From positions 15,816 to 55,121 of the forward strand of contig MFLD01000036.1 in the NCBI GenBank assembly GCA_001781465.1: a stretch of DNA of 39,306 nucleotides, given 5' to 3'. Both the position numbers and the translations under genes were made by a program. Each line of letters starts with the position of its first letter. The first letter of the stretch is position 1. The stretch is from Candidatus Kaiserbacteria bacterium RIFCSPHIGHO2_02_FULL_49_16. Lineage in GTDB: Bacteria; Patescibacteriota; Minisyncoccia; Phycocordibacterales; UBA2100. Below are positions 1-28,269 of this stretch, piece after piece. Below the pieces are notes generated by a model. The model saw only the letters and a list, made by a program, of their open reading frames with translations. It ran no database searches and was not told the DNA's origin.

Positions 1-1488
1 ATGGAAGAAACGAATCCGAAAGACACCACAGCAAACCCCGCCACAGGAACTAATACCGCGCCGGCCGCGTCTCAAGACGTGTCAGTTGATAATGCCGACG
101 TCAACAAGGCGGCTAGTACTATAGAAGAGCACGTGGTGCTTTCTGCCTCGATAGTTCCTGTCCCGCCCGCCCGCAAAATCCAGCCTATTTCTGTTATTCA
201 TTCTGCTCAGACTCCCATTAAAATTCCTGATCCGCATCAACCAATACAATCGACCCCAGCGCCGATACCTGCGATACAAAACGTTCATGATGAAGCGAAG
301 ATAACGCCACCAGTTAGCGATACACCCGCTCCAACCGCAACAACACCGCCAGCGCCAAAAACTCTTCGAGCGGATATAGCGAATATCATCGGCAAGATAA
401 AACTGCCAGAACGAATAACGGTCAAACTGAGTGCGGGGAAAGCAAAACCTCCGGCGCCGCCTTCGCCTCCACCAACAATTCCCCCTGTCCCAGAAAAAGA
501 AATAAAGAATATTGGAACGGTGTCCGCGGGTGACGCGCCCGCGCAAGCGGCGCTCCAGAGTGAAAACGTAAAAAGGGAAGAAAAGGAGCCCGCGTCTTCC
601 ATCGTTTCAGTGCACACGCTAAAAGACGATCTGCAAACCGTCGTGCGCGATAAGAAAATGTCGATTGTGCGGGCTGTCGCGCTTGAAACAGAAAAAAAGA
701 GGGGGCAGGAACACCTGGCAGATACTAATCCCGCGTCTGAGAGAGCGCGTTCTCGCAAAGCGATCGGAATCGCGTTTGTTGTTGTGATTCTGCTTACGCT
801 CTCTACCATCGCATTTGTCGGAGTGAGGTTCGTCTTAGAACAAAGCGCCGGAAACGCAGTGCCTGCCGCCGCTCCCGCTCTCATCTTCTCCGAAAAAACG
901 GTCGTATTACCGCGGGAAACAAAAACAGGGGCTGATTTAAAACAAACATTGCTTGCTGGAGAGCGCAACTTAGAAAACATACAGCTTGGAGCGATTATCC
1001 GCATAGTTCCCACGTTTTCGCAGACAGAACCGGATGGTACCGAGACTCAACGGGCCGATAGCATAGGAGATTTTCTTACTGCAATTGAGGCGCGGGCATC
1101 TGCGGAGTTGGCCCGTTCTTTCCGCGGCGATTTTTTCCTTGGACTTCATCAGACTGTTGATAAGCTTTCTCCGGTCATCATTATTCCAGTGACTTCTTAC
1201 GAGCGCGCGTTTGCCGGCATGCTTGCATGGGAACCGACAATGAATAGCGACCTCTCTCCGATATTTACTCCCATCTCGCCTCAAATCGTGAACGAACAAG
1301 GGGTATTGGTTGAAAGACACTTCCAGGATTCACTCATAAACAACTATGACGTGCGCGTGCTGAAAGATGACGCGGGCGCCACGAAGCTTCTGTACTCGTT
1401 TCCTACTCGCGCGATACTAATCATTTCGGAAAGCCAATATTCTTTCACAGAGGCATTAAGCCGCCTGCGCGCGAGCCGGCAACTTTAG
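1..1488 (+). CDS. Hypothetical membrane-anchored protein (Pro-rich N-terminus, one TM helix, C-terminal globular domain)
   Basis: 495-aa ORF with a Pro/Ala/Thr-rich first third and a hydrophobic stretch AIGIAFVVVILLTLSTIAFVGV. It starts at the window edge, so the true start cannot be verified. Confidence 0.75.
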   Translation: MEETNPKDTTANPATGTNTAPAASQDVSVDNADVNKAASTIEEHVVLSASIVPVPPARKIQPISVIHSAQTPIKIPDPHQPIQSTPAPIPAIQNVHDEAKITPPVSDTPAPTATTPPAPKTLRADIANIIGKIKLPERITVKLSAGKAKPPAPPSPPPTIPPVPEKEIKNIGTVSAGDAPAQAALQSENVKREEKEPASSIVSVHTLKDDLQTVVRDKKMSIVRAVALETEKKRGQEHLADTNPASERARSRKAIGIAFVVVILLTLSTIAFVGVRFVLEQSAGNAVPAAAPALIFSEKTVVLPRETKTGADLKQTLLAGERNLENIQLGAIIRIVPTFSQTEPDGTETQRADSIGDFLTAIEARASAELARSFRGDFFLGLHQTVDKLSPVIIIPVTSYERAFAGMLAWEPTMNSDLSPIFTPISPQIVNEQGVLVERHFQDSLINNYDVRVLKDDAGATKLLYSFPTRAILIISESQYSFTEALSRLRASRQL

Positions 1489-1538
1489 ACGCTGAAATTG
1501 CCTAGCCACTTTCTGCCCTTTCATGTATTATTGCAAGC

Positions 1539-1907
1539 ATGAAACACATAAAATCGGAGGAATTGGTTGAACTGCGCGCGCAATTGGATGCTGAATTAGA
1601 TGCTCTTCAGGAGGAACTTGCTTCACACGGCAAAGCGGCTCCGGAAAGCGGAGACTGGCAGGGAACGACTGGCGGTCTTGTCGGCGAAGAAGCTGATCCA
1701 AACGACGCGGCAGACCAGATGGAAGAACTGGCCACGAATGTGCCTCTCGTTGAAGAACTCGAGAAAAGATACAAGGATGTCGCATCGGCGCTCCAAAATA
1801 TGGAGAAGGGAACCTATGGAATTTGCGAGGACTGCGAGGATGCGATTCCAATGGACAGATTGCGGGCTAACCCTGCGGCGCGAACTTGCATAACGCATAG
1901 CAAATAA
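1539..1907 (+). CDS. DksA/TraR family C4 zinc-finger protein
   Basis: Coiled coil with DPNDAAD followed by GTYGICEDC...RLRANPAARTCITH. Confidence 0.9.
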   Translation: MKHIKSEELVELRAQLDAELDALQEELASHGKAAPESGDWQGTTGGLVGEEADPNDAADQMEELATNVPLVEELEKRYKDVASALQNMEKGTYGICEDCEDAIPMDRLRANPAARTCITHSK

Positions 1908-1946
1908 TGCATAGTAAGTGGTGCGTAGTTAGTAGTCAGTAGTGGA
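1891..1946 (+). repeat. Degenerate heptamer tandem array across the stop codon
   Basis: TAACGCA TAGCAAA TAATGCA TAGTAAG TGGTGCG TAGTTAG TAGTCAG TAGTGGA. Confidence 0.6.
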
Positions 1947-1984
1947 GGAGTAGCATCCAAGCCTGTAATGGGTATTAAAGTAAG

Positions 1985-2012
1985 TCGGCTCAGAAGAAAT
2001 CTTCTGAGCCGA
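1985..2012. terminator. Hairpin, probable terminator
   Basis: TCGGCTCAGAAG-AAAT-CTTCTGAGCCGA downstream of the DksA-like gene; no strong U-tract. Confidence 0.5.
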
Positions 2013-2092
2013 AATACATTTAAAAATTAAATATTTCAATATCTAATTCTTAAATGTACTCAAGGAGCAATGCGAATCGCAAGATTCGCGTT

Positions 2093-2122
2093 AGGATAGC
2101 TCTCGCTATCCTTTCTTTTTTT
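2093..2122 (+). terminator. Intrinsic terminator-like hairpin
   Basis: AGGATAGC-TCTC-GCTATCCT followed by a T-rich run. Confidence 0.55.
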
Positions 2123-2260
2123 CAGATCGAATTTCGATCTGCTGTATACATTATCCGACGATTCCTTGAAATTAGTCTGATATTATGTATTATTAGTATG
2201 ACAAATCGAATAAATGGCTCTATACAGGGTTATTAAAGGATTAGATAATTGTCGGAAAAT

Positions 2261-3013
2261 ATGTACAAAAAGGAACTTATGGGCGCGGGGCTTACGCACA
2301 AGCAAGCGCAGGTGTATGTCGCTTGCTTGGAAGCTGGCCCATCCAAGATTCCGCAAATCGCCAGCTTGTCTCAAATAAAAAGAACTACGGTCTACGGGAT
2401 AGTGGAAGAATTGGAGGCATTAGACCTCGTCAAAAGCAGTTACAATGGAAAACAGAAGCTCTATGAGGCGCAAGACCCGGCACTTATCCTCTCGATGCTG
2501 GAGGAGAGGAAGAGGCGAATGACTGAAATCCTGCCTGGGCTCACTAATTTGTTCATCACGCATCGCGTGCGCCCGAAAATCTCTTTTTTCGAAGGGCGGG
2601 AAGGAGTAAGAAAAATTTATGACGATGTTCTCGAATGTAAATCAAAAGAGGTCAAACAGGTCGTACGCGTACGGCAGCATAACGAGGCTGTGGGCGATGC
2701 ATTTATTAAGGAGTTTATTAGAAAGAGAGTCGCGCGCGGTATTGTCACGCACAATCTTCATCCAAAGCATGGGGACCTTTATACAAATGAGCGGGGAATG
2801 GAGGACCTGAAGCGCAAGCGATTCGTGCGCTATCTTCCCCCGTCCGTTTTTTATGCGGCCATAATCATGATTTACGACCACAAAGTGGCAATGGTCTCGA
2901 CTAAGGAAGAAAATTTCGGTTTCATAATTGAAAGCAAGGAATTCTCGAACACGATAAGCGCATACTTCGATTTCATGTGGGGACTTGGGTCAAAAGAACC
3001 GGACCTTTCGTGA
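2261..3013 (+). CDS. TrmB family transcriptional regulator
   Basis: N-terminal wHTH (GLTHKQAQVY...RTTVYGIVEEL), PKISFFEGREG, C-terminal IYDHKVAMVS...FDFMW. ATG 2261 is preferred over TTG 2249. Confidence 0.85.
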   Translation: MYKKELMGAGLTHKQAQVYVACLEAGPSKIPQIASLSQIKRTTVYGIVEELEALDLVKSSYNGKQKLYEAQDPALILSMLEERKRRMTEILPGLTNLFITHRVRPKISFFEGREGVRKIYDDVLECKSKEVKQVVRVRQHNEAVGDAFIKEFIRKRVARGIVTHNLHPKHGDLYTNERGMEDLKRKRFVRYLPPSVFYAAIIMIYDHKVAMVSTKEENFGFIIESKEFSNTISAYFDFMWGLGSKEPDLS

Positions 3014-3038
3014 TTTTAATCCATAGTACAATATCTCC

Positions 3039-4592
3039 GTGGCAGAAAAACAGAAAATTGCTTCCGGTTTCGCACGACTTTTTGGGGCACAGCCCGCGCT
3101 TCCGCGCGCACATGTTGTTTCCGTTGAAACTGACATCACAAAAGGACTTCACGCGTTCACGATAGTCGGGCTTCCAGATAAATCAGTGGAGGAGGCGAAA
3201 GACAGAATCGCATCGGCGATAAAAAACAGCGGGTTTGAGTCGCCGAAGAGAAGCAACAAGAAAATCGTCATTTCGCTAGCCCCTGCCACTTTGAAAAAAG
3301 AGGGTGGGGCTTTTGATTTGCCAATGGCGCTCTCGTTTATGCTTGCATCGGAACAAGTGAAATTTAATCCCGCCGGCAAATTATTTGCCGGAGAACTGGC
3401 GCTAGACGGAGAAGTGCGCGGAATATTGGGCGCGCTTTCAATTGCAATATCTGTTCGCGATAAAGGTTTGAAAGAACTTTTCCTGCCAGAAGAAAATCTG
3501 GAGGAAGCATCTTTGGTTTCCGGCATAACACTCTTCGGCGTAAGCAGTCTCAAAGAGTTGATGGAGCATTTAAATGGCAAAAAGGCCATTGCGCCTTACA
3601 TAAAAAAAGAGCGCTCTCGAGTAGGTGAACAAGAGATTGAAGGGCCGATATTTGACGACATACGAGAACAGAACAGTGCAAAACGAGGCTTGGAAATCGC
3701 GGTTGCTGGACGCCATAACATCGCGCTCTATGGCCCGCCGGGAACAGGCAAAACAATGCTCGCGCGAGCGGCAACCGCGCTTTTGCCGGAATTATCTTTG
3801 GAAGAAGTAATCGAGGTGACGATGATTCACTCACTCGCAGGAACATCGGAAGGCCGCGCGATTGTCCGCGCGCCGTTTCGAAGCCCTCACCACACTTCTT
3901 CGTATGCATCTTTAATCGGTGGCGGTTCATCAAGCCCTCGTCCCGGAGAAGTTACTCTCGCGCACAGGGGCGTATTGTTTTTGGACGAATTTCCTGAATT
4001 TCACCGCGATGTCGTGCAGGCATTGCGAGAACCACTGGAAGACAAGGTGGTTTCAATCTCGCGCGCAAAGGGCTCGGCGATATTTCCGGCGAACTTCATG
4101 CTGATTGCGGCGCTGAACCCTTGCCCCTGCGGATTTTGGGGGACCGCGCGATGCGAATGTATGCCTCACATCGTAGAAAAATATCGCCGTAAAATTTCCG
4201 GCCCCGTTGCCGACAGAATAGACATGTGGGTTTCTGTTGGGGATATCGCGCCCGAAGCTATGGCAATGCGCAAAAGAAAACCGACCGGCGAAACGGAGGC
4301 CGTGCGAGAAAGAATATTGAAAGCCCGCGCAAAACAAAATGAACGATTCGCAGATACGAAAGGCGTCTCTACAAATGCCGATATGAAAGCAAGACAACTA
4401 GATACGCTCGCAAAACTGACACAGAAAGCGGAAGAAACTTTAATCGGCGCGGCTCGCTCTCTAAAACTCTCGCCACGCGGATACCACCGCACCATCAAAC
4501 TCGCCCGCACCGTCGCCGACCTCTCCGGAAGCGACACAATCGAACCAGCGCATATGTTGGAGGCCCTGCAGTACAGAGCGCGTGAATTATGA
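3039..4592 (+). CDS. comM: ComM/YifB Mg-chelatase-like AAA+ ATPase
   Basis: IVGLPD, GELALDG, GPPGTGKTMLA, FRSPHH, PGEVTLAHRGVLFLDEFPEF, NPCPCG, ARTVADL. Confidence 0.95.
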   Translation: MAEKQKIASGFARLFGAQPALPRAHVVSVETDITKGLHAFTIVGLPDKSVEEAKDRIASAIKNSGFESPKRSNKKIVISLAPATLKKEGGAFDLPMALSFMLASEQVKFNPAGKLFAGELALDGEVRGILGALSIAISVRDKGLKELFLPEENLEEASLVSGITLFGVSSLKELMEHLNGKKAIAPYIKKERSRVGEQEIEGPIFDDIREQNSAKRGLEIAVAGRHNIALYGPPGTGKTMLARAATALLPELSLEEVIEVTMIHSLAGTSEGRAIVRAPFRSPHHTSSYASLIGGGSSSPRPGEVTLAHRGVLFLDEFPEFHRDVVQALREPLEDKVVSISRAKGSAIFPANFMLIAALNPCPCGFWGTARCECMPHIVEKYRRKISGPVADRIDMWVSVGDIAPEAMAMRKRKPTGETEAVRERILKARAKQNERFADTKGVSTNADMKARQLDTLAKLTQKAEETLIGAARSLKLSPRGYHRTIKLARTVADLSGSDTIEPAHMLEALQYRAREL

Positions 4593-4906
4593 TCAAACCA
4601 AGAAATAAAGTTAAGGACATTCTTAAACGCGTATGCACGGCGTGTGGCGTGAAAATGCAGATTTTGACTTTCGATAATCGCACCTATACAGGTGGTCACT
4701 TTTTCGGAAAAGTTCCGCTCTTCAGAAAAAAAGAGTGGGATAAATCGTTGAAAGCTGGAGTACGCAAACAACGCATGGGAAGTATACTGATTAATGTTTT
4801 GAAGAAAGACCCCAAGCCGTACAAGTTCGCAGAAAACTGGGAGTGTGAAAAATGCTATCAGCGCGGGTGGATAGTAGAGAAAAGGTACGCGAATCGTAGG
4901 ACTTAA
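4589..4906 (+). CDS. Small basic hypothetical protein with two CxxC pairs (possible zinc ribbon)
   Basis: CTAC ... WECEKC; ATGA overlap with the comM stop. Confidence 0.65.
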   Translation: MIKPRNKVKDILKRVCTACGVKMQILTFDNRTYTGGHFFGKVPLFRKKEWDKSLKAGVRKQRMGSILINVLKKDPKPYKFAENWECEKCYQRGWIVEKRYANRRT

Positions 4907-4920
4907 AGCATTTTCTCAAG

Positions 4921-4966
4921 TTATAAACCATTCTAGTATTTTGCAAAATACTAGAATGGTTTATAA
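4921..4966. promoter_or_regulatory. Perfect 46-bp palindrome overlapping the ArsR promoter
   Basis: TTATAAACCATTCTAGTATTTTG|CAAAATACTAGAATGGTTTATAA; the TATAAT box lies at 4962-4967. Confidence 0.8.
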
Positions 4967-4973
4967 TCATCCT

Positions 4974-5270
4974 ATGACAGATAATCCTAACCATATACAT
5001 ACGGGCAACTTCCGAAGACTTGAGCGCGTGGTGAAAGGTTTCGCAAATCATCGACGATTGGAAATACTCCACTTGTTACATAAGGAACCAGAACTTTCCG
5101 TTGAGGATATTTCAGAGCGGCTGAACATCGGGTATGAAAACGCATCCGATCATCTGCGAAAGATGGCAATCGCGGGCCTCATTCTGAAACGCAATGAGGG
5201 TAATAATGTGAGACACAAACTCACGCCTCGCGCGGAATCTATTCTAGTGTTTTGCAAAATACTAGAATAG
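4974..5270 (+). CDS. ArsR/SmtB family winged-helix regulator
   Basis: KGFANHRRLEIL...LSVEDIS...ASDHLRKM...GLI. ATG 4974 lies 6 nt after TATAAT. Confidence 0.85.
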   Translation: MTDNPNHIHTGNFRRLERVVKGFANHRRLEILHLLHKEPELSVEDISERLNIGYENASDHLRKMAIAGLILKRNEGNNVRHKLTPRAESILVFCKILE

Positions 5271-5272
5271 AT
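5237..5272. repeat. Second copy of the ArsR-promoter palindrome (36 bp, 1 mismatch), overlapping the 3' end of the gene
   Basis: ATCTATTCTAGTGTTTTG|CAAAATACTAGAATAGAT. Confidence 0.85.
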
Positions 5273-5437
5273 AGGACGGGAAATTGAATGGGGAGCGGAG
5301 CGAGGGGTGTAGAGATAATTATCGTTCTCGCGTTAGTCACCAAGCGTGAAAACAAAACCAGTTTCACCCCGCTAATTCCATCAAAAAGTCCCCGAGCACA
5401 AACCCCCGCCTTTCGGCGGGGTGATATTGTATATGTC

Positions 5438-5971
5438 ATGAAACTTGTTTTGCCATCGGTGGAATATAAAGACTCATTCATCGAGGCAGTGAAAGAATTT
5501 CAAGAGGATACTGATTATTCGGACCGAAACAAGCGGTATCGCAGACTTTCGATTTCGGAACTCGAGGGAGATTTTGATTCATTCGTTCAGAAAGAACTGA
5601 GCCATGCGCGCGGTGAAAATATTCGGGAAAGACATGTTCCTTATACGACTTGTTGGCTTGTCGATAATGGTGAATTTGTCGGGCAGGCAAATATTCGTCA
5701 TCGTCTTACCGATAGCCTGCGTCAAATTGGCGGACACATCGGCTATGACATCCGTCCGAGCAAGCGCGGACAAGGGTACGGCAATAAAATCCTCGAGCTC
5801 GCACTCCAGAAAGCGAAGGGGCTCGGGATAAAATGTGCATTGATTACATCCGACATAAGAAACGAGGCCTCTCGCAAGATTATTGAGAAGAACGGCGGCA
5901 TTTTGGAAAATCAAATTCCAAATCCCGAAACGGGGTTCGACACTCTCCGCTATTGGATCGACCTCGAATAA
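5438..5971 (+). CDS. GNAT family N-acetyltransferase
   Basis: GGHIGYDIRPSKRGQGYG and NEASRKIIEKNGG. Start MKLVLPS at 5438 is preferred over 5288. Confidence 0.9.
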   Translation: MKLVLPSVEYKDSFIEAVKEFQEDTDYSDRNKRYRRLSISELEGDFDSFVQKELSHARGENIRERHVPYTTCWLVDNGEFVGQANIRHRLTDSLRQIGGHIGYDIRPSKRGQGYGNKILELALQKAKGLGIKCALITSDIRNEASRKIIEKNGGILENQIPNPETGFDTLRYWIDLE

Positions 5972-5991
5972 TCTTTTCCAACTCCAGCGAA

Positions 5992-6049
5992 AAGACCTGC
6001 TGTTTTTTAACGGTTTGAGTGATTCCTCCGTTAAAAAATAGCAGGTCTT
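5992..6049. terminator. Long hairpin between convergent genes (probable bidirectional terminator)
   Basis: AAGACCTGCTGTTTTTTAACGG ... CCGTTAAAAAATAGCAGGTCTT, a 22-bp stem with one G-T pair. Confidence 0.7.
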
Positions 6050-6059
6050 GGAGCGTCCT

Positions 6060-7091
6060 CTATATCCTCTCCTTGCTCTCCGAAAAATAAACCCTGTTTT
6101 TTGAAATGCCGAGTGTTTTCAATCGCTTCACGACAAAATCATTCATCGCTTTTTCAGTTTTGAATTTCAGAACTTTGTTCTTGTCTATCACAGCCCACTG
6201 TTTGACGGCCCGCAGGACATCCACTTTGTTGAAGACGATGTGCGTGACGCCGTTCATTCGAATCGCGCGCTCGAGCGTCTGCATATTCATCCAGTTGCAC
6301 TGACGGCGACGGCCTGTCGTTGAGCCGAATTCCTCGCCGATATCGCCGATTTTGTCGAAGACCTCTCCCTTGGGCTGGAATTTTTTGCTTCCAACATAGG
6401 TCTCATAGATTTTTGCAACACCCCAGACATCGCGGATTGCCGTCGCGGGCAGACCGTTGAGTAACGCCCCCGCCGTCGTGCAGTGAGAAGAAGTTACGAA
6501 CGGGTAATCGCCCCAATCAATATCTAACCCGAATCCCTGCGCGCCCTCGGCGAGGATTTTTACATCTTTTTCCCTCGCACCCCTCGACCCTGCTCGGGGT
6601 AAATACCACTCTTTATATAAATCAACGAGATAGGGTTTTAGAGAGGACACCTTCTCCGCGCGCACGCCGGTGCGTCCGTACTTATCGCGATATGCCGGTC
6701 CGTTTCCGCGGCCGGTCGTGCCGATTTTACCTCCGCCTTTTTTATCTTCTGCTTTATGCGCGTTCGTAATCACATGCGCGTTCCGCGCGATGAATATTTT
6801 GCCCGCGGTTTTGACTCCGCCGTCTTCCAGCATTTTAATTTCGCGAAAAAATTGTGCCGGGTCTACCACGCAACCGGAGCCGATGACGCTCCGCACTCCG
6901 AAAAAAACTCCCGCCGGAATGTGGTGGGTGATAAATTTCTTTCCCTTATGAAAAATCGTGTGCCCCGCGTTGCACCCGCCGTTGTAGCGGAGCACATGAG
7001 TATATTTTTTATTCTTGCACAAAAAGTGGGCGACCTTGCCCTTCCCGCAATCCCCGTATTGGAGATCGACTATGACATCGGTTGTAACCAC
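6060..7091 (-). CDS. purA: Adenylosuccinate synthetase, short form
   Basis: QYGDCGKGK, GGCNAGHT, IGTTGRGNGP, EGAQGFGLDIDWGDYPFVTSS, EFGSTTGRRR. Confidence 0.93.
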   Translation of the reverse strand: MVTTDVIVDLQYGDCGKGKVAHFLCKNKKYTHVLRYNGGCNAGHTIFHKGKKFITHHIPAGVFFGVRSVIGSGCVVDPAQFFREIKMLEDGGVKTAGKIFIARNAHVITNAHKAEDKKGGGKIGTTGRGNGPAYRDKYGRTGVRAEKVSSLKPYLVDLYKEWYLPRAGSRGAREKDVKILAEGAQGFGLDIDWGDYPFVTSSHCTTAGALLNGLPATAIRDVWGVAKIYETYVGSKKFQPKGEVFDKIGDIGEEFGSTTGRRRQCNWMNMQTLERAIRMNGVTHIVFNKVDVLRAVKQWAVIDKNKVLKFKTEKAMNDFVVKRLKTLGISKNRVYFSESKERI

Positions 7092-7144
7092 AGCTGACTC
7101 ATAGTAACACTAATATAAATATTCTCAAAATAAGATGGAATTGG

Positions 7145-7195
7145 AAAGCCCTGTCCAGAAAGCCGCATAGGTGTTTGGCTCGGACAGGGCTTTTT
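7145..7195. terminator. Hairpin, probable terminator
   Basis: AAAGCCCTGTCC ... GGACAGGGCTTTTT. Confidence 0.55.
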
Positions 7196-7257
7196 CCCGC
7201 ATCTTTGGCGGTGCCTCCTTTCAAAAAAGAATGAACTTGGCTGACTTGCTCGCGGCG

Positions 7258-7476
7258 CTATCCCTTGCCACCAGGACCGACTTTAAAGCCAGGCGTTCCT
7301 GCTTTTGCCCCGCGACCCATGTCGTTTGGGGACATGTGACCGACACGAACCTGGCCTGCAACATATCGCCCTTCCCTCAAGTCTTTTTGCACCAGGGAAA
7401 GGCCCGCAAAGCCCGTGCCGGTGTAACTTGAAGGCGGTGGCGATGCGATGTCTCGTTGTTGCCATTTGTTGCTCAT
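7258..7476 (-). CDS. Candidate small Gly-rich protein (72 aa)
   Basis: GGAGG lies 4 nt before the ATG and a hairpin follows downstream; no recognisable family. Confidence 0.45.
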   Translation of the reverse strand: MSNKWQQRDIASPPPSSYTGTGFAGLSLVQKDLREGRYVAGQVRVGHMSPNDMGRGAKAGTPGFKVGPGGKG

Positions 7477-13279: not shown

Positions 13280-13314
13280 TCACATGCAGTGAGGCGACGC
13301 CTCACTGCATGTGA
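13280..13314. repeat. Perfect inverted repeat with 17-bp arms
   Basis: TCACATGCAGTGAGGCG-A-CGCCTCACTGCATGTGA between divergent genes. Confidence 0.8.
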
Positions 13315-13366: not shown

Positions 13367-14290
13367 ATGAACTGGCTTCGCGCTCACAGATATACAGCCA
13401 CGCTAATCGCGGCGGCCGTTTTCGTTGTCGTTGGCGGAATACTGGCAAAAAATAAAGAGGGAACAGTTGTACTAATAAGCGGAGATACGCGAAATGTTTC
13501 GGTGGGATATCCATATTACGCTCCGCCTGCTATATCTCCGGAGGTTAAACCTCCGGAGATTGCAGACAACGCGTCTCCGCGCGCGCTATTTTTTGGCCAA
13601 AAAGTAAAGTTGGAAGAAACTCCGGCCATATCTCCGGAGGTTAAACCTCCGGAGGTTCTGGCGGTAACTCGAAATAATTCTCTCGACAATCAATACGCAC
13701 TTTTCTTTAAAGCACTTTCAAATATTCTCTCGCCCGTTGATAAACGTACTCCGGAGCAAAAGGTGCTTTTTGATTATGGAAATCAAGTTGGACTGGCAAT
13801 ACGAAATTTTGAAGATACGCACGGCAACGTTACTCAAGTATTAAGAGACTTCTTTGATAGCCGTACCGACTTCGCTAAAATAGCGAGCATCCCTGAAGCC
13901 GCGGATAAATACGCGCAACTAACCGCGTTGATTGGAGGCAAGAATCAATCAGTTTCCAAGGAATCCGCAATGGCAAATGTTCAAGGAGTCGTGAATGACT
14001 ACGCGCAATTGAGTGTCGCGATACGGAACGTACCTAATGTTCCTCCGCAAGTAGAATCAGCGAATGCGAAACTCTCAAGGGGATACTCCGATGTAGCACA
14101 GGGTCTTTCTCTCCTTACAAAAACAGAAAACGAAGCCCAGTTGCTTGAAGCCATCAAAGCGTACAACGCTGATGCGGATGAATTTATAGAAAATTACGTG
14201 TATCTCATACAGCTTTTCTCCGCGTATGGAGTAAAATTCTCCGCAAACGACCCGGGCTCCGTTTTTTCTTTCAGTTTTGGGGGTCTCTAG
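13367..14290 (+). CDS. Hypothetical N-terminally anchored helical protein
   Basis: Start MNWLRAH followed by one TM helix. The longer ORF from 13139 overlaps the opposite-strand gene and runs through hairpins. Confidence 0.75.
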   Translation: MNWLRAHRYTATLIAAAVFVVVGGILAKNKEGTVVLISGDTRNVSVGYPYYAPPAISPEVKPPEIADNASPRALFFGQKVKLEETPAISPEVKPPEVLAVTRNNSLDNQYALFFKALSNILSPVDKRTPEQKVLFDYGNQVGLAIRNFEDTHGNVTQVLRDFFDSRTDFAKIASIPEAADKYAQLTALIGGKNQSVSKESAMANVQGVVNDYAQLSVAIRNVPNVPPQVESANAKLSRGYSDVAQGLSLLTKTENEAQLLEAIKAYNADADEFIENYVYLIQLFSAYGVKFSANDPGSVFSFSFGGL

Positions 14291-28227: not shown

Positions 28228-28269
28228 CCTGTTCCTTATCCAATCCGGCCGGATTGGATAAGGAACAGG
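28228..28269. repeat. Perfect 42-bp palindrome
   Basis: CCTGTTCCTTATCCAATCCGG|CCGGATTGGATAAGGAACAGG. Confidence 0.9.

What the first reader, a model, noticed from the sequence alone, without database searches (positions are those of the whole stretch)
4921..5272. ArsR gene bracketed by two copies of one palindrome, the second encoding its own C-terminus
Seen: the 28-bp core ATTCTAGTRTTTTGCAAAATACTAGAAT occurs at 4930-4957, inside a perfect 46-bp palindrome over the promoter, and at 5241-5268, inside a 36-bp palindrome encoding SILVFCKILE-stop. The outer extensions differ between copies yet each stays palindromic, so symmetry appears to be maintained independently. Established: ArsR dimers bind palindromic operators at their own promoters. 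Inference: either a two-operator looping/roadblock circuit in which the protein binds the DNA coding for its own tail and controls the downstream GNAT, or a minimal one-gene mobile or invertible cassette. The core can be parsed 11-6-11 like a tyrosine-recombinase site.
Basis: partly seen in the sequence, partly recalled or inferred. Interest (0 to 1): 0.75.

Follow-up and report, generated by a model that had tools for sequence, protein, structure and literature searches.

The report
Regulator gene bracketed by its palindrome
A tiny DNA-binding regulator of an ultra-small groundwater bacterium sits between two copies of its presumed binding site, one on its promoter and one written into its own last codons, and the same palindrome has also spread through the genome like selfish DNA.

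Summary
A perfect 46-bp palindrome (4921-4966) covers the promoter of a 98-aa ArsR/SmtB-type gene (4974-5270). A 36-bp copy (5237-5272, one mismatch) encodes residues 89-98 plus the stop.

It is not a local oddity.
- All 10 of 10 ArsR-like paralogs in this 0.9-Mb Patescibacteria genome carry their own specific repeat at both gene ends.
- In 75 of 76 relatives from Kaiser-, Adler-, Taylor- and Nomurabacteria the layout recurs.
- Codons F93-C94-K95 are TTT-TGC-AAA in 81 of 81 genes, while other conserved residues vary freely at synonymous sites. This shows DNA-level selection.

Best reading: the palindrome is the protein's operator. The 5' copy represses a leaderless promoter. The 3' copy is a second operator, acting as a roadblock as in LacI-O3 and/or as a cooperative partner.

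The downstream GNAT is not a conserved target.

The same palindrome is also an interspersed repeat, with 25 copies here. It is nearly confined to genomes that have the regulator, and it sits in frame inside housekeeping genes (TsaD, DHFR, PyrC-like), as RPE/REP elements do. A mobile-cassette reading stays open. A tyrosine-recombinase reading is not supported.

This scan has reported the same architecture before on other DNA (e1-792665, e1-792686, e1-1003976 and others). I found no publication describing it.

The parts
4921..4966 (.). 5' palindrome: a perfect 46-bp dyad centred between 4943 and 4944. Presumed operator O1, overlapping the core promoter.
   Evidence: TTTGCAAA lies within 130 bp upstream of the start in 75 of 76 homologous loci.
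4940..4967 (+). Sigma-70-like promoter TTTGCA-16 nt-TATAAT. The -10 box ends 6 nt before the ATG, so the mRNA is probably leaderless.
   Evidence: Best promoter match of the region, 10 of 12. In relatives the best -10-like hexamer ends 6-9 nt before the ATG in 43 of 72 loci, and an SD-like tetramer occurs in 1 of 80.
4974..5270 (+). ArsR/SmtB-type winged-helix gene, 98 aa plus TAG. No metal-site motifs.
   Evidence: Pfam HTH_20 31.9 bits and HTH_5 31.1 bits. NCBIfam NF033788 55.7 bits against a cut-off of 55. AF2 pLDDT 92.2. Foldseek: CadC, HlyU and CzrA at TM 0.76-0.85.
5237..5272 (.). 3' palindrome: a 36-bp dyad with one mismatch, centred between 5254 and 5255. Presumed operator O2. It encodes S89-E98 of helix alpha5 plus the stop codon.
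   Evidence: F93, C94 and K95 are TTT, TGC and AAA in 81 of 81 genes, and L91 is CTA in 78 of 81, while other conserved residues use all synonymous codons.

Best explanation
The palindrome is the cognate operator of the ArsR/SmtB-type winged-helix protein encoded between its two copies. The unit is a self-contained autoregulatory module, typical of a Paceibacterota-wide protein family.

Steps shown by sequence:
- The 5' copy lies over the -35/-10 of a probably leaderless promoter.
- The 3' copy lies in the last ten codons (helix alpha5) and is held by selection on the DNA itself.
- Both copies change together when the family diversifies.

Inferred:
- The dimer binds both copies.
- Binding at O1 shuts off initiation.
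- Binding at O2 stops elongating RNA polymerase at the gene end and/or stabilises occupancy of O1. The roadblock would work as LacI does at O3, giving transcripts without a stop codon that trans-translation removes.

The same palindrome has additionally multiplied as an interspersed REP/RPE-like repeat in this genome. These extra copies would titrate the protein, and negative autoregulation through the same site would compensate.
For: (1) Chance is excluded. The core gave 0 matches in 100 shuffles. The genome holds 145 long palindromes against 0 in a shuffled genome.

(2) The layout is a family trait. All 10 of 10 paralogs in G000 have their own matched 5'/3' repeat, with different sequences per paralog. 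Of 33 family genes in 19 genomes, 25 score >=13; the cross-pair control (n=150) has mean 8.7, sd 2.9. Of 76 loci in public Paceibacterota MAGs, 75 have TTTGCAAA both upstream and in the last 40 bp.

(3) The two copies co-vary. Identity of the flanks outside the invariant core is 14.8 of 18 within a locus against 12.6 of 18 across loci (Mann-Whitney p = 3e-16). The promoter-site type predicts residue 92, which is encoded by the 3' site: AGT gives V in 48 of 52, AAC gives T in 10 of 11, AGC gives A in 8 of 9.

(4) The 3' copy is constrained at the DNA level. Codons 93-95 are invariant in 81 of 81 genes. By contrast F23 is TTC 43/TTT 34 and K72 is AAA 36/AAG 45.

(5) Protein and site co-vary. Wing residue 77 is R/K in 11 of 11 AAC-type loci and in 0 of 52 AGT-type loci. 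Recognition helices differ between subfamilies that have different palindromes.

(6) The promoter overlaps the 5' copy and the mRNA looks leaderless.

(7) The fold is ArsR/SmtB.

(8) There is a precedent. LacI bound at O3 roadblocks lacI transcription, and the truncated product is SsrA-tagged (PMC3711431, passages read). G000 has tmRNA and SmpB.

(9) Site and protein occur together. All 18 of 18 genus genomes with an FCK-type gene have the palindrome (2-25 copies), against 11 of 43 without it (1-6 copies).
Against: - There is no binding, transcript or protein data, and no RNA run is listed for this DNA.
- Centre-to-centre spacing takes almost every value from 283 to 340 bp in the FCK subfamily and 286 to 416 bp across the family. 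There is no helical phasing: resultant length 0.1-0.2, n=13. This speaks against a rigid loop.
- In distant subfamilies the 3' copy lies 17-75 bp after the stop. The non-stop/tmRNA route therefore cannot be the general function.
- A 46-bp perfect dyad is longer than the 12-2-12 sites known for this family (recalled).
- Dispersed copies in convergent intergenic regions (8 of 36 intergenic sites by my crude gene calls) and in frame inside genes are not explained by promoter control.
- The genomes are related, so the p-value and the wing association overstate independence.
- Because all FCK loci share the core, cross-locus controls are high: median 17 against 23 within a locus.
Confidence: 0.6

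Rival explanations
1. Mobile unit. The gene plus its two palindromes would be the autonomous member of a new family of interspersed palindromic elements, analogous to a RAYT gene flanked by REPs. The dispersed single palindromes would be its non-autonomous copies or footprints. The protein would serve the element, in targeting or copy-number control, rather than the host.
For: - The same palindrome occurs 25 times in G000.
- Dispersed single copies are found almost only in genomes that hold the gene.
- Palindromes sit in frame inside TsaD, DHFR, PurN-like, UvrC, YggS-like, Dus and CapA-like genes, whose orthologues lack them.
- One TsaD loop holds 5 unrelated palindrome families in 6 of 24 orthologues.
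- The related murC-TF-rsmI cassette is present in 8 of 30 loci. At least four of the genomes lacking it have murC abutting rsmI (gap -14 to +21 bp) with no palindrome, and in the others the gap holds other inserts.
- Neighbours of 80 homologues fall into 125 clusters.
- The same genome has Y1_Tnp genes bracketed by their own palindromes.
Against: - A 98-aa winged-helix protein has no catalytic motif for DNA cleavage.
- ComM-TF synteny is kept in 6 other genomes with ComM 84-90% identical, while the palindrome type changes in place.
- murC-TF-rsmI is kept at TF identities similar to those of its neighbours.
- No solid excision or inversion joint was seen. All joints have sides of 38 letters or fewer and come from repeats.
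- Y1_Tnp genes are in 56 of 61 genus genomes, including many with no FCK palindrome, so they do not explain the spread.
Confidence: 0.22
2. RNA-level element. The palindromes would act as transcript hairpins, as terminators or 3'-end stabilisers that insulate the gene. The likeness of the two copies would come from local duplication or gene conversion, not from protein recognition.
For: - Long perfect stems flank many genes of this genome.
- The 3' copy is transcribed.
- The single mismatch of the 3' copy (G against T) would be a G-U pair in the sense RNA.
- REP hairpins are known to stabilise upstream mRNA (recalled).
Against: - The centre TTTTGCAAAA, which would form the loop and stem top, is invariant and itself self-complementary. 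That pattern fits dyad recognition of duplex DNA, not a hairpin loop.
- There is no U-tract after the stem on either strand.
- The 5' copy lies upstream of the -10 box of its own promoter.
- Paralog-specific pairing in 10 of 10 paralogs, and the association with a wing residue, are unexplained.
- No Rfam family matches.
Confidence: 0.08
3. Site-specific recombination or invertible cassette. The 28-bp core would be an 11-6-11 tyrosine-recombinase (Xer/pdif-like) site pair that inverts or excises the gene.
For: - The core can be parsed 11-6-11.
- Gene modules flanked by pdif sites exist in Acinetobacter plasmids (recalled).
- Contigs break at both palindromes, so orientation is not fixed by k-mers alone.
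Against: - The sites are perfect dyads without distinct half-sites.
- At least 10 different sequence types exist in one genome, which has a single Phage_integrase-family gene.
- The promoter and the ATG are fixed to one side of the 5' copy in 75 loci.
- Inversion would separate the gene's last codons from its body.
Confidence: 0.03

Closest known systems
ArsR/SmtB-family autorepressors without metal sites (HlyU, NolR, PagR; also CzrA, CadC, SmtB)
   Same: Same fold and size: Foldseek TM 0.75-0.85 and phmmer to HlyU at E = 7e-7. An inverted repeat lies over the protein's own promoter.
   Different: - A second copy of the site is written into the gene's own last codons (or just after the stop) and conserved across a phylum-level group.
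- The dyads reach 46 bp.
- There are ten paralog-specific site types in one 0.9-Mb genome.
- The sites are also an interspersed repeat.
- There is no sensor motif. The only Cys is fixed by the palindrome.
LacI with its auxiliary operator O3 at the end of lacI
   Same: A repressor binds DNA at the 3' end of its own gene. According to PMC3711431 (passages read, citing Abo et al. 2000) this roadblocks lacI transcription, and the truncated product is SsrA-tagged.
   Different: In lac, O3 exists because the regulated promoter lies next door and loops to O1. Here there is no conserved downstream target, the second partner is the gene's own promoter site, and the arrangement is a family-wide trait. 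The roadblock is not shown here.
REP/REPIN-RAYT systems
   Same: A single-copy gene is flanked by two copies of a short palindrome that is also dispersed in the genome. Several gene/palindrome pairs with different sequences occur in one genome. (PMC3116915 and PMC3337134: search listing and start of abstracts only.) True Y1_Tnp genes with this layout occur in G000.
   Different: The flanked gene is a non-catalytic winged-helix protein, not a Y1 HUH transposase. One copy is part of the coding sequence.
Rickettsia palindromic elements (RPE)
   Same: Palindromic repeats are inserted in frame into conserved protein-coding genes of a reduced genome. For the papers I saw the search listing only.
   Different: The elements here are 30-46 bp, not roughly 100-150 bp (recalled), and each family is tied to a cognate DNA-binding gene.

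Membership tests
ArsR/SmtB transcription factors | Profile match above curated cut-offs | tested here: met
   HTH_20 31.9 bits against 27 and HTH_5 31.1 bits against 22. NF033788 55.7 bits against 55, which is marginal.
ArsR/SmtB transcription factors | Winged-helix fold a1-a2-a3-a4-b1-b2-a5 | tested here: met
   AF2 pLDDT 92.2 with helices at 10-23, 26-37, 43-50, 54-66 and 85-97 and strands at 70-75 and 78-83. Foldseek gives CadC 1u2w at TM 0.83, plus HlyU, CzrA, SmtB and NolR.
ArsR/SmtB transcription factors | Metal or thiol sensor site (a3N Cys pair or a5 His/Asp/Glu). This defines the sensing members, not the fold. | tested here: not met
   By inspection there is no Cys in a3 and no His/Asp pattern in a5. 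The single Cys94 is replaced by Leu in paralogs.
ArsR/SmtB transcription factors | Dimer binds an inverted repeat at its own promoter | not testable with these tools
   Only sequence evidence is available: the dyad lies over TTTGCA-16-TATAAT, and the co-variation results.
LacI-O3-type roadblock autoregulation | Operator inside or at the 3' end of the repressor's own coding sequence | tested here: met
   The 3' copy covers codons 89-98 plus the stop. The centre lies 15.5 bp before the end of the stop codon in the FCK-subfamily loci measured. TTTGCAAA lies in the last 40 bp in 75 of 76 loci.
LacI-O3-type roadblock autoregulation | Truncated non-stop transcript and tmRNA tagging | not testable with these tools
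   tmRNA and SmpB at 155.7 bits are present. There are no RNA data.
REP-RAYT / REPIN | The flanked gene is a Y1 (HUH) transposase | tested here: not met
   The protein gave no Y1_Tnp match and is a winged-helix protein.
REP-RAYT / REPIN | Short palindrome dispersed in many copies, with two copies flanking the associated gene | tested here: met
   25 copies in G000. Flanking pairs are present at 10 of 10 paralogs.
Rickettsia palindromic elements | In-frame insertion in conserved genes whose orthologues lack it | tested here: met
   TsaD has +16 aa, while 11 of 24 orthologues have the minimal 34-aa spacing. In the PyrC-like gene, 7 of 10 orthologues have 19-21 aa against 32 aa in G000. Pfam confirms the host genes.
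Xer/pdif-type recombination module | 11-6-11 site with two different recombinase half-sites, and a cognate recombinase pair | tested here: not met
   The sites are perfect dyads, occur in at least 10 sequence types, and the genome has one Phage_integrase-family gene.

The most novel reading that the evidence does not exclude
The ArsR-type proteins would be the sequence-specific partners of a previously unrecognised class of mobile palindromic DNA in ultra-small bacteria. Each gene with its two palindromes would be the autonomous unit. The dispersed copies, including those written in frame into essential genes, would be its dependants. The protein would direct or police their spread. This would be a REP-RAYT-like symbiosis built on a non-catalytic winged-helix protein.
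Probability: 0.2. Interest if true: 0.9.

Novelty: new variant of a known kind. Interest (0 to 1): 0.72.

Why it matters
- It is a clean natural case of one DNA stretch under two codes at once. Ten codons of a dimerisation helix are also a protein-binding dyad. The evidence is absolute synonymous-site conservation in 81 of 81 genes, together with correlated amino-acid changes (V-FCK-I/T, T-FCK-T, A-FCK-K) forced by dyad symmetry.
- It gives candidate operator-repressor pairs for organisms that have almost no known regulation. One 0.9-Mb genome offers ten orthogonal pairs, which is directly testable by EMSA or DAP-seq and usable as parts.
- It links regulator evolution to the spread of short palindromes into essential genes of reduced genomes.

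Tried and rejected
- RNA expression: no RNA holder is listed among the 15 runs.
- Inversion, excision or circles: only contigs could be laid. They break at both palindromes, and all joints have sides of 38 letters or fewer, in bins whose summed depth is 1200-7400 against about 12 in the flanks. These joints are other copies of the repeat and are not usable either way.
- Rfam: only sub-threshold miRNA-hairpin hits.
- Empty-site test at this locus: the 105-aa upstream ORF was found in 0 of 60 genus genomes, so it gave no anchor. ComM was used instead.
- Helical phasing of the two sites: none found.
- A fixed promoter geometry at the dispersed single copies: none seen.
- My own gene calls (936 genes) are crude, so the intergenic classes are approximate.
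It was repeated with the 14 closest sequences.
- Literature: searches returned no paper on palindromes flanking ArsR genes or on REP-like repeats in Patescibacteria. This library lacks most subscription journals. Three searches or look-ups failed on term format.
- No complex prediction was run.

Full report
OBSERVATION. The region reads as described.
- A perfect 46-bp palindrome lies at 4921-4966, with 23-nt arms that are 100% complementary.
- A 36-bp palindrome with one mismatch lies at 5237-5272.
- Together they form a 33-nt direct repeat, 91% identical, with a start-to-start spacing of 311 bp.
- The 28-bp core occurs only at these two places in the window and in none of 100 shuffles.
- Between them lies an ORF from ATG 4974 to TAG 5268-5270, 98 aa, ending SILVFCKILE. 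Codons 89-98 lie at 5238-5267, so the 3' palindrome encodes them plus the stop.
- The best sigma-70-like match of the region is TTTGCA-16-TATAAT at 4940-4967, inside the 5' palindrome. It ends 6 nt before the ATG.

THE PROTEIN.
- Pfam HTH_20 (31.9 bits) and HTH_5 (31.1 bits) pass their cut-offs. NCBIfam NF033788 (ArsR/SmtB) scores 55.7 against a cut-off of 55.
- The nearest solved sequences are HlyU (E = 7e-7), CadC and CzrA. AspA appears at E = 1e-3.
- An AlphaFold2 model built on a 28-sequence family alignment (A1) has pLDDT 92.2. Its order is a1 10-23, a2 26-37, a3 43-50, a4 54-66, strands 70-75 and 78-83, a5 85-97.
- Foldseek finds CadC, HlyU, CzrA, SmtB and NolR at TM 0.75-0.85.
- The 3' palindrome therefore encodes most of a5, which in this family forms the dimer interface together with a1 (established knowledge, not tested here).
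- No metal-site motif is present. The single Cys94 is Leu in paralogs.

THE ORGANISM. The window is part of a 0.905-Mb, 46-contig genome, 48% G+C, 90.8% complete. Its closest public relatives are labelled Candidatus Kaiserbacteria and other Parcubacteria/Paceibacterota. The DNA is held by groundwater and soil metagenomes.

THE LAYOUT IS A FAMILY TRAIT.
- tblastn finds paralogs on seven further stretches, and the genome search counts 10 in G000.
- Every one of the 10 has a matched repeat in its promoter and at or just after its 3' end, and the sequence differs from paralog to paralog. Examples are TTTTGCAAAA-, TTCTTGAGAA-, TTCTGCAGAA-, TTCGCGCGAA-, TTCGTGAGAA- and TTCAnTTGAA-centred dyads.
- Of 33 family genes from 19 of 61 genomes of the same GTDB family, 25 have a promoter/3'-end match scoring >=13. 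The cross-pair control (n=150) has mean 8.7, sd 2.9, max 28. The 8 without a match are seven genes of a second genus and L034.
- A scan of one genome per species found 399 relatives. Of the best 80 loci, 76 had enough flank, and 75 of those have TTTGCAAA both within 130 bp upstream and within the last 40 bp.

CO-VARIATION.
- Outside the invariant TTTTGCAAAA, the 9+9 flanking bases of the two copies agree at 14.8 of 18 positions within a locus and 12.6 of 18 between loci. Mann-Whitney p = 3e-16, but the loci are related, so this overstates independence.
- The two bases next to the core in the promoter copy predict residue 92, which is encoded by the 3' copy. AGT gives Val in 48 of 52, AAC gives Thr in 10 of 11, AGC gives Ala in 8 of 9.
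- Six genomes keep ComM (84-90% identical) directly upstream of the gene, yet carry AGTA-, AACA- or AACG-type sites. Where both flanks were recovered (5 of the 6), the same type lies at both ends.

DNA-LEVEL SELECTION.
- In 81 of 81 genes, F93-C94-K95 are TTT-TGC-AAA, and L91 is CTA in 78 of 81.
- Every other conserved residue uses its synonymous codons freely: F23 is TTC 43/TTT 34, K21 is AAA 53/AAG 27, K72 is 36/45, and Leu positions use 5-6 codons.
- The 3' copy is therefore conserved as nucleic acid, not only as protein.
- The centre is invariant and self-complementary, which fits dyad recognition of duplex DNA better than a hairpin loop.

PROTEIN-SITE LINK.
- Wing residue 77 is Arg/Lys in 11 of 11 AAC-type loci and in 0 of 52 AGT-type loci. 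This may be partly phylogenetic.
- Recognition helices are near-invariant within, and different between, subfamilies that have different dyads.
- Across 61 genomes of the genus, all 18 with an FCK-type gene (E <= 1e-37) have the palindrome, at 2-25 copies. Only 11 of the 43 without it have any (1-6 copies), and one of those 11 is 69% complete and carries a gene fragment.

MECHANISM.
- O1 over the core promoter of a leaderless mRNA gives ordinary autorepression. In support, the best -10-like hexamer ends 6-9 nt before the ATG in 43 of 72 loci, and an SD-like tetramer occurs in 1 of 80.
- For O2 I favour a roadblock. LacI bound at O3, at the end of lacI, stops lacI transcription, and the truncated product is SsrA-tagged (PMC3711431, abstract and introduction passages read; it cites Abo et al. 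2000, which I did not read). [quoted passage not shown]
- G000 has tmRNA and SmpB.
- Against a rigid loop: the spacing takes nearly all values from 283 to 340 bp, and 286 to 416 bp family-wide, without helical phase.
- Against the non-stop route as the general role: in distant subfamilies the 3' copy lies 17-75 bp after the stop, often between convergent genes.
- What all members share is an operator at each boundary of the gene.
- The GNAT at 5438-5971 is not a conserved partner. Neighbours of 80 homologues fall into 125 clusters, 19 of 75 downstream genes are convergent, and the GNAT is found beside none.

THE PALINDROME IS ALSO AN INTERSPERSED REPEAT.
- G000 holds 19 copies of the strict core and 25 of ARYNTTTTGCAAAANRYT. 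They fall into sub-types whose arms differ by symmetric changes.
- In all, G000 holds 145 long palindromes, against 0 in a shuffled genome, in a dozen or more families.
- 54 of these belong to ArsR-type families. By my crude gene calls, 22 lie between tandem genes, 8 between convergent genes, 6 between divergent genes and 18 inside ORFs.
- At least eight lie in frame in recognisable genes: TsaD, DHFR, a formyltransferase, UvrC, a YggS-like protein, Dus, a PGA_cap protein (Pfam) and a PyrC-like gene (my reading).
- At the TsaD loop NHMEGH...LISGGHT, 11 of 24 orthologues have the minimal 34 aa, while G000 has 50. Six orthologues carry palindromes of five unrelated families at that loop.
- In the PyrC-like gene, 7 of 10 orthologues have 19-21 aa where G000 has 32.
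- In metagenome contigs the two palindrome bins reach summed depths of 1200-7400 against about 12 in the flanks.
- This is the behaviour of REP/RPE-type selfish DNA. The genome also has true Y1_Tnp genes bracketed by their own palindromes. But Y1_Tnp genes are in 56 of 61 genus genomes, including many without any FCK palindrome.

MOBILITY OF THE CASSETTE.
- For the LKFLR subfamily, 8 of 30 rsmI loci carry the cassette between murC (or another gene) and rsmI, about 330-341 bp.
- Four genomes have murC abutting rsmI (gap -14 to +21 bp) with no palindrome.
- Others hold unrelated inserts.
- The unit is thus gained or lost whole. The direction is unresolved.

TYROSINE-RECOMBINASE READING. This is not supported. 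The sites are perfect dyads, occur in at least ten sequence types, and the genome has one Phage_integrase-family gene.

EARLIER NOTES OF THIS SCAN (consulted after my own analysis). These notes describe the same architecture on other genomes (e1-792665, e1-792686, e1-1003976, e1-1025145, e1-2232600, e1-1219508). They agree with what I found here. They are AI notes and not independent evidence.
- the 10-of-10 paralog result in one genome;
- the synonymous-codon test;
- the residue-92 and wing-77 associations;
- the gene-palindrome co-occurrence across 61 genomes;
- the TsaD hot spot with unrelated families;
- the murC-rsmI empty sites;
- the LacI-O3/tmRNA precedent.

VERDICT. This is a real, conserved and apparently undescribed variant of ArsR-type autoregulation, with a selfish-DNA side.

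Noticed in passing
window 4589-4906 (+): A 105-aa ORF with two CxxC pairs and no Pfam or NCBIfam match. It was found in 0 of 60 genomes of the genus. Six relatives have ComM directly followed by the regulator, so this ORF looks like an insert between ComM and the 5' palindrome.
   Followed up: partly
window 5992-6013 / 6028-6049: An inverted repeat with 22-nt arms (95% complementary) and a 14-nt loop, between the convergent GNAT and adenylosuccinate-synthetase-like genes. Its bin reaches a summed metagenome depth of 350-490 against about 12 in the flanks, so it is another dispersed repeat or terminator family.
   Followed up: no
window 5404-5421: A GC-rich hairpin (7 G-C pairs) lies 16 nt before the GNAT start at 5438. 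It reads as a terminator-like site on both strands. What drives the GNAT is unclear.
   Followed up: no
window 1985-2012, 2015-2058, 13280-13314, 13534-13560, 28228-28269: Further long palindromes of other families in the window. Two lie just upstream of a TrmB-like regulator gene (2249-3013). The one at 28228-28269 belongs to a four-copy family, CCTGTTCCTTATCCAATCCGGCCGGATTGGATAAGGAACAGG.
   Followed up: no
G000:C7:38215-38963 and G000:C11:107-2051: IS200-like Y1_Tnp genes (220 and 244 aa) are each bracketed by their own palindrome family, which is the REP-RAYT layout. The C11 unit is tandemly duplicated with a period of 1136 bp. There are five Y1_Tnp genes in G000, and 56 of 61 genus genomes have some.
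   Followed up: partly
L053 (G000:C43:14234-15508) and orthologues L062-L085: The TsaD loop between NHMEGH and LISGGHT is an insertion hot spot. Five unrelated palindrome families occupy it in 6 of 24 orthologues, and others show decayed remnants.
   Followed up: partly
G000:C16:4876-5431: A second FCK-type regulator (77% identical) has four palindrome copies within 540 bp: the two bracketing ones, one 41 bp upstream of the next gene (SGNH-hydrolase-like, my reading), and one about 100 bp upstream of its promoter site. A short TAGAAGC-like tandem repeat lies beside it.
   Followed up: partly
window 4483-4543: This bin has a summed metagenome depth of 216-470 against about 10 in the flanks. It lies in the conserved C-terminal coding part of the ComM-like gene, so cross-mapping from other organisms is the likely cause.
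   Followed up: no
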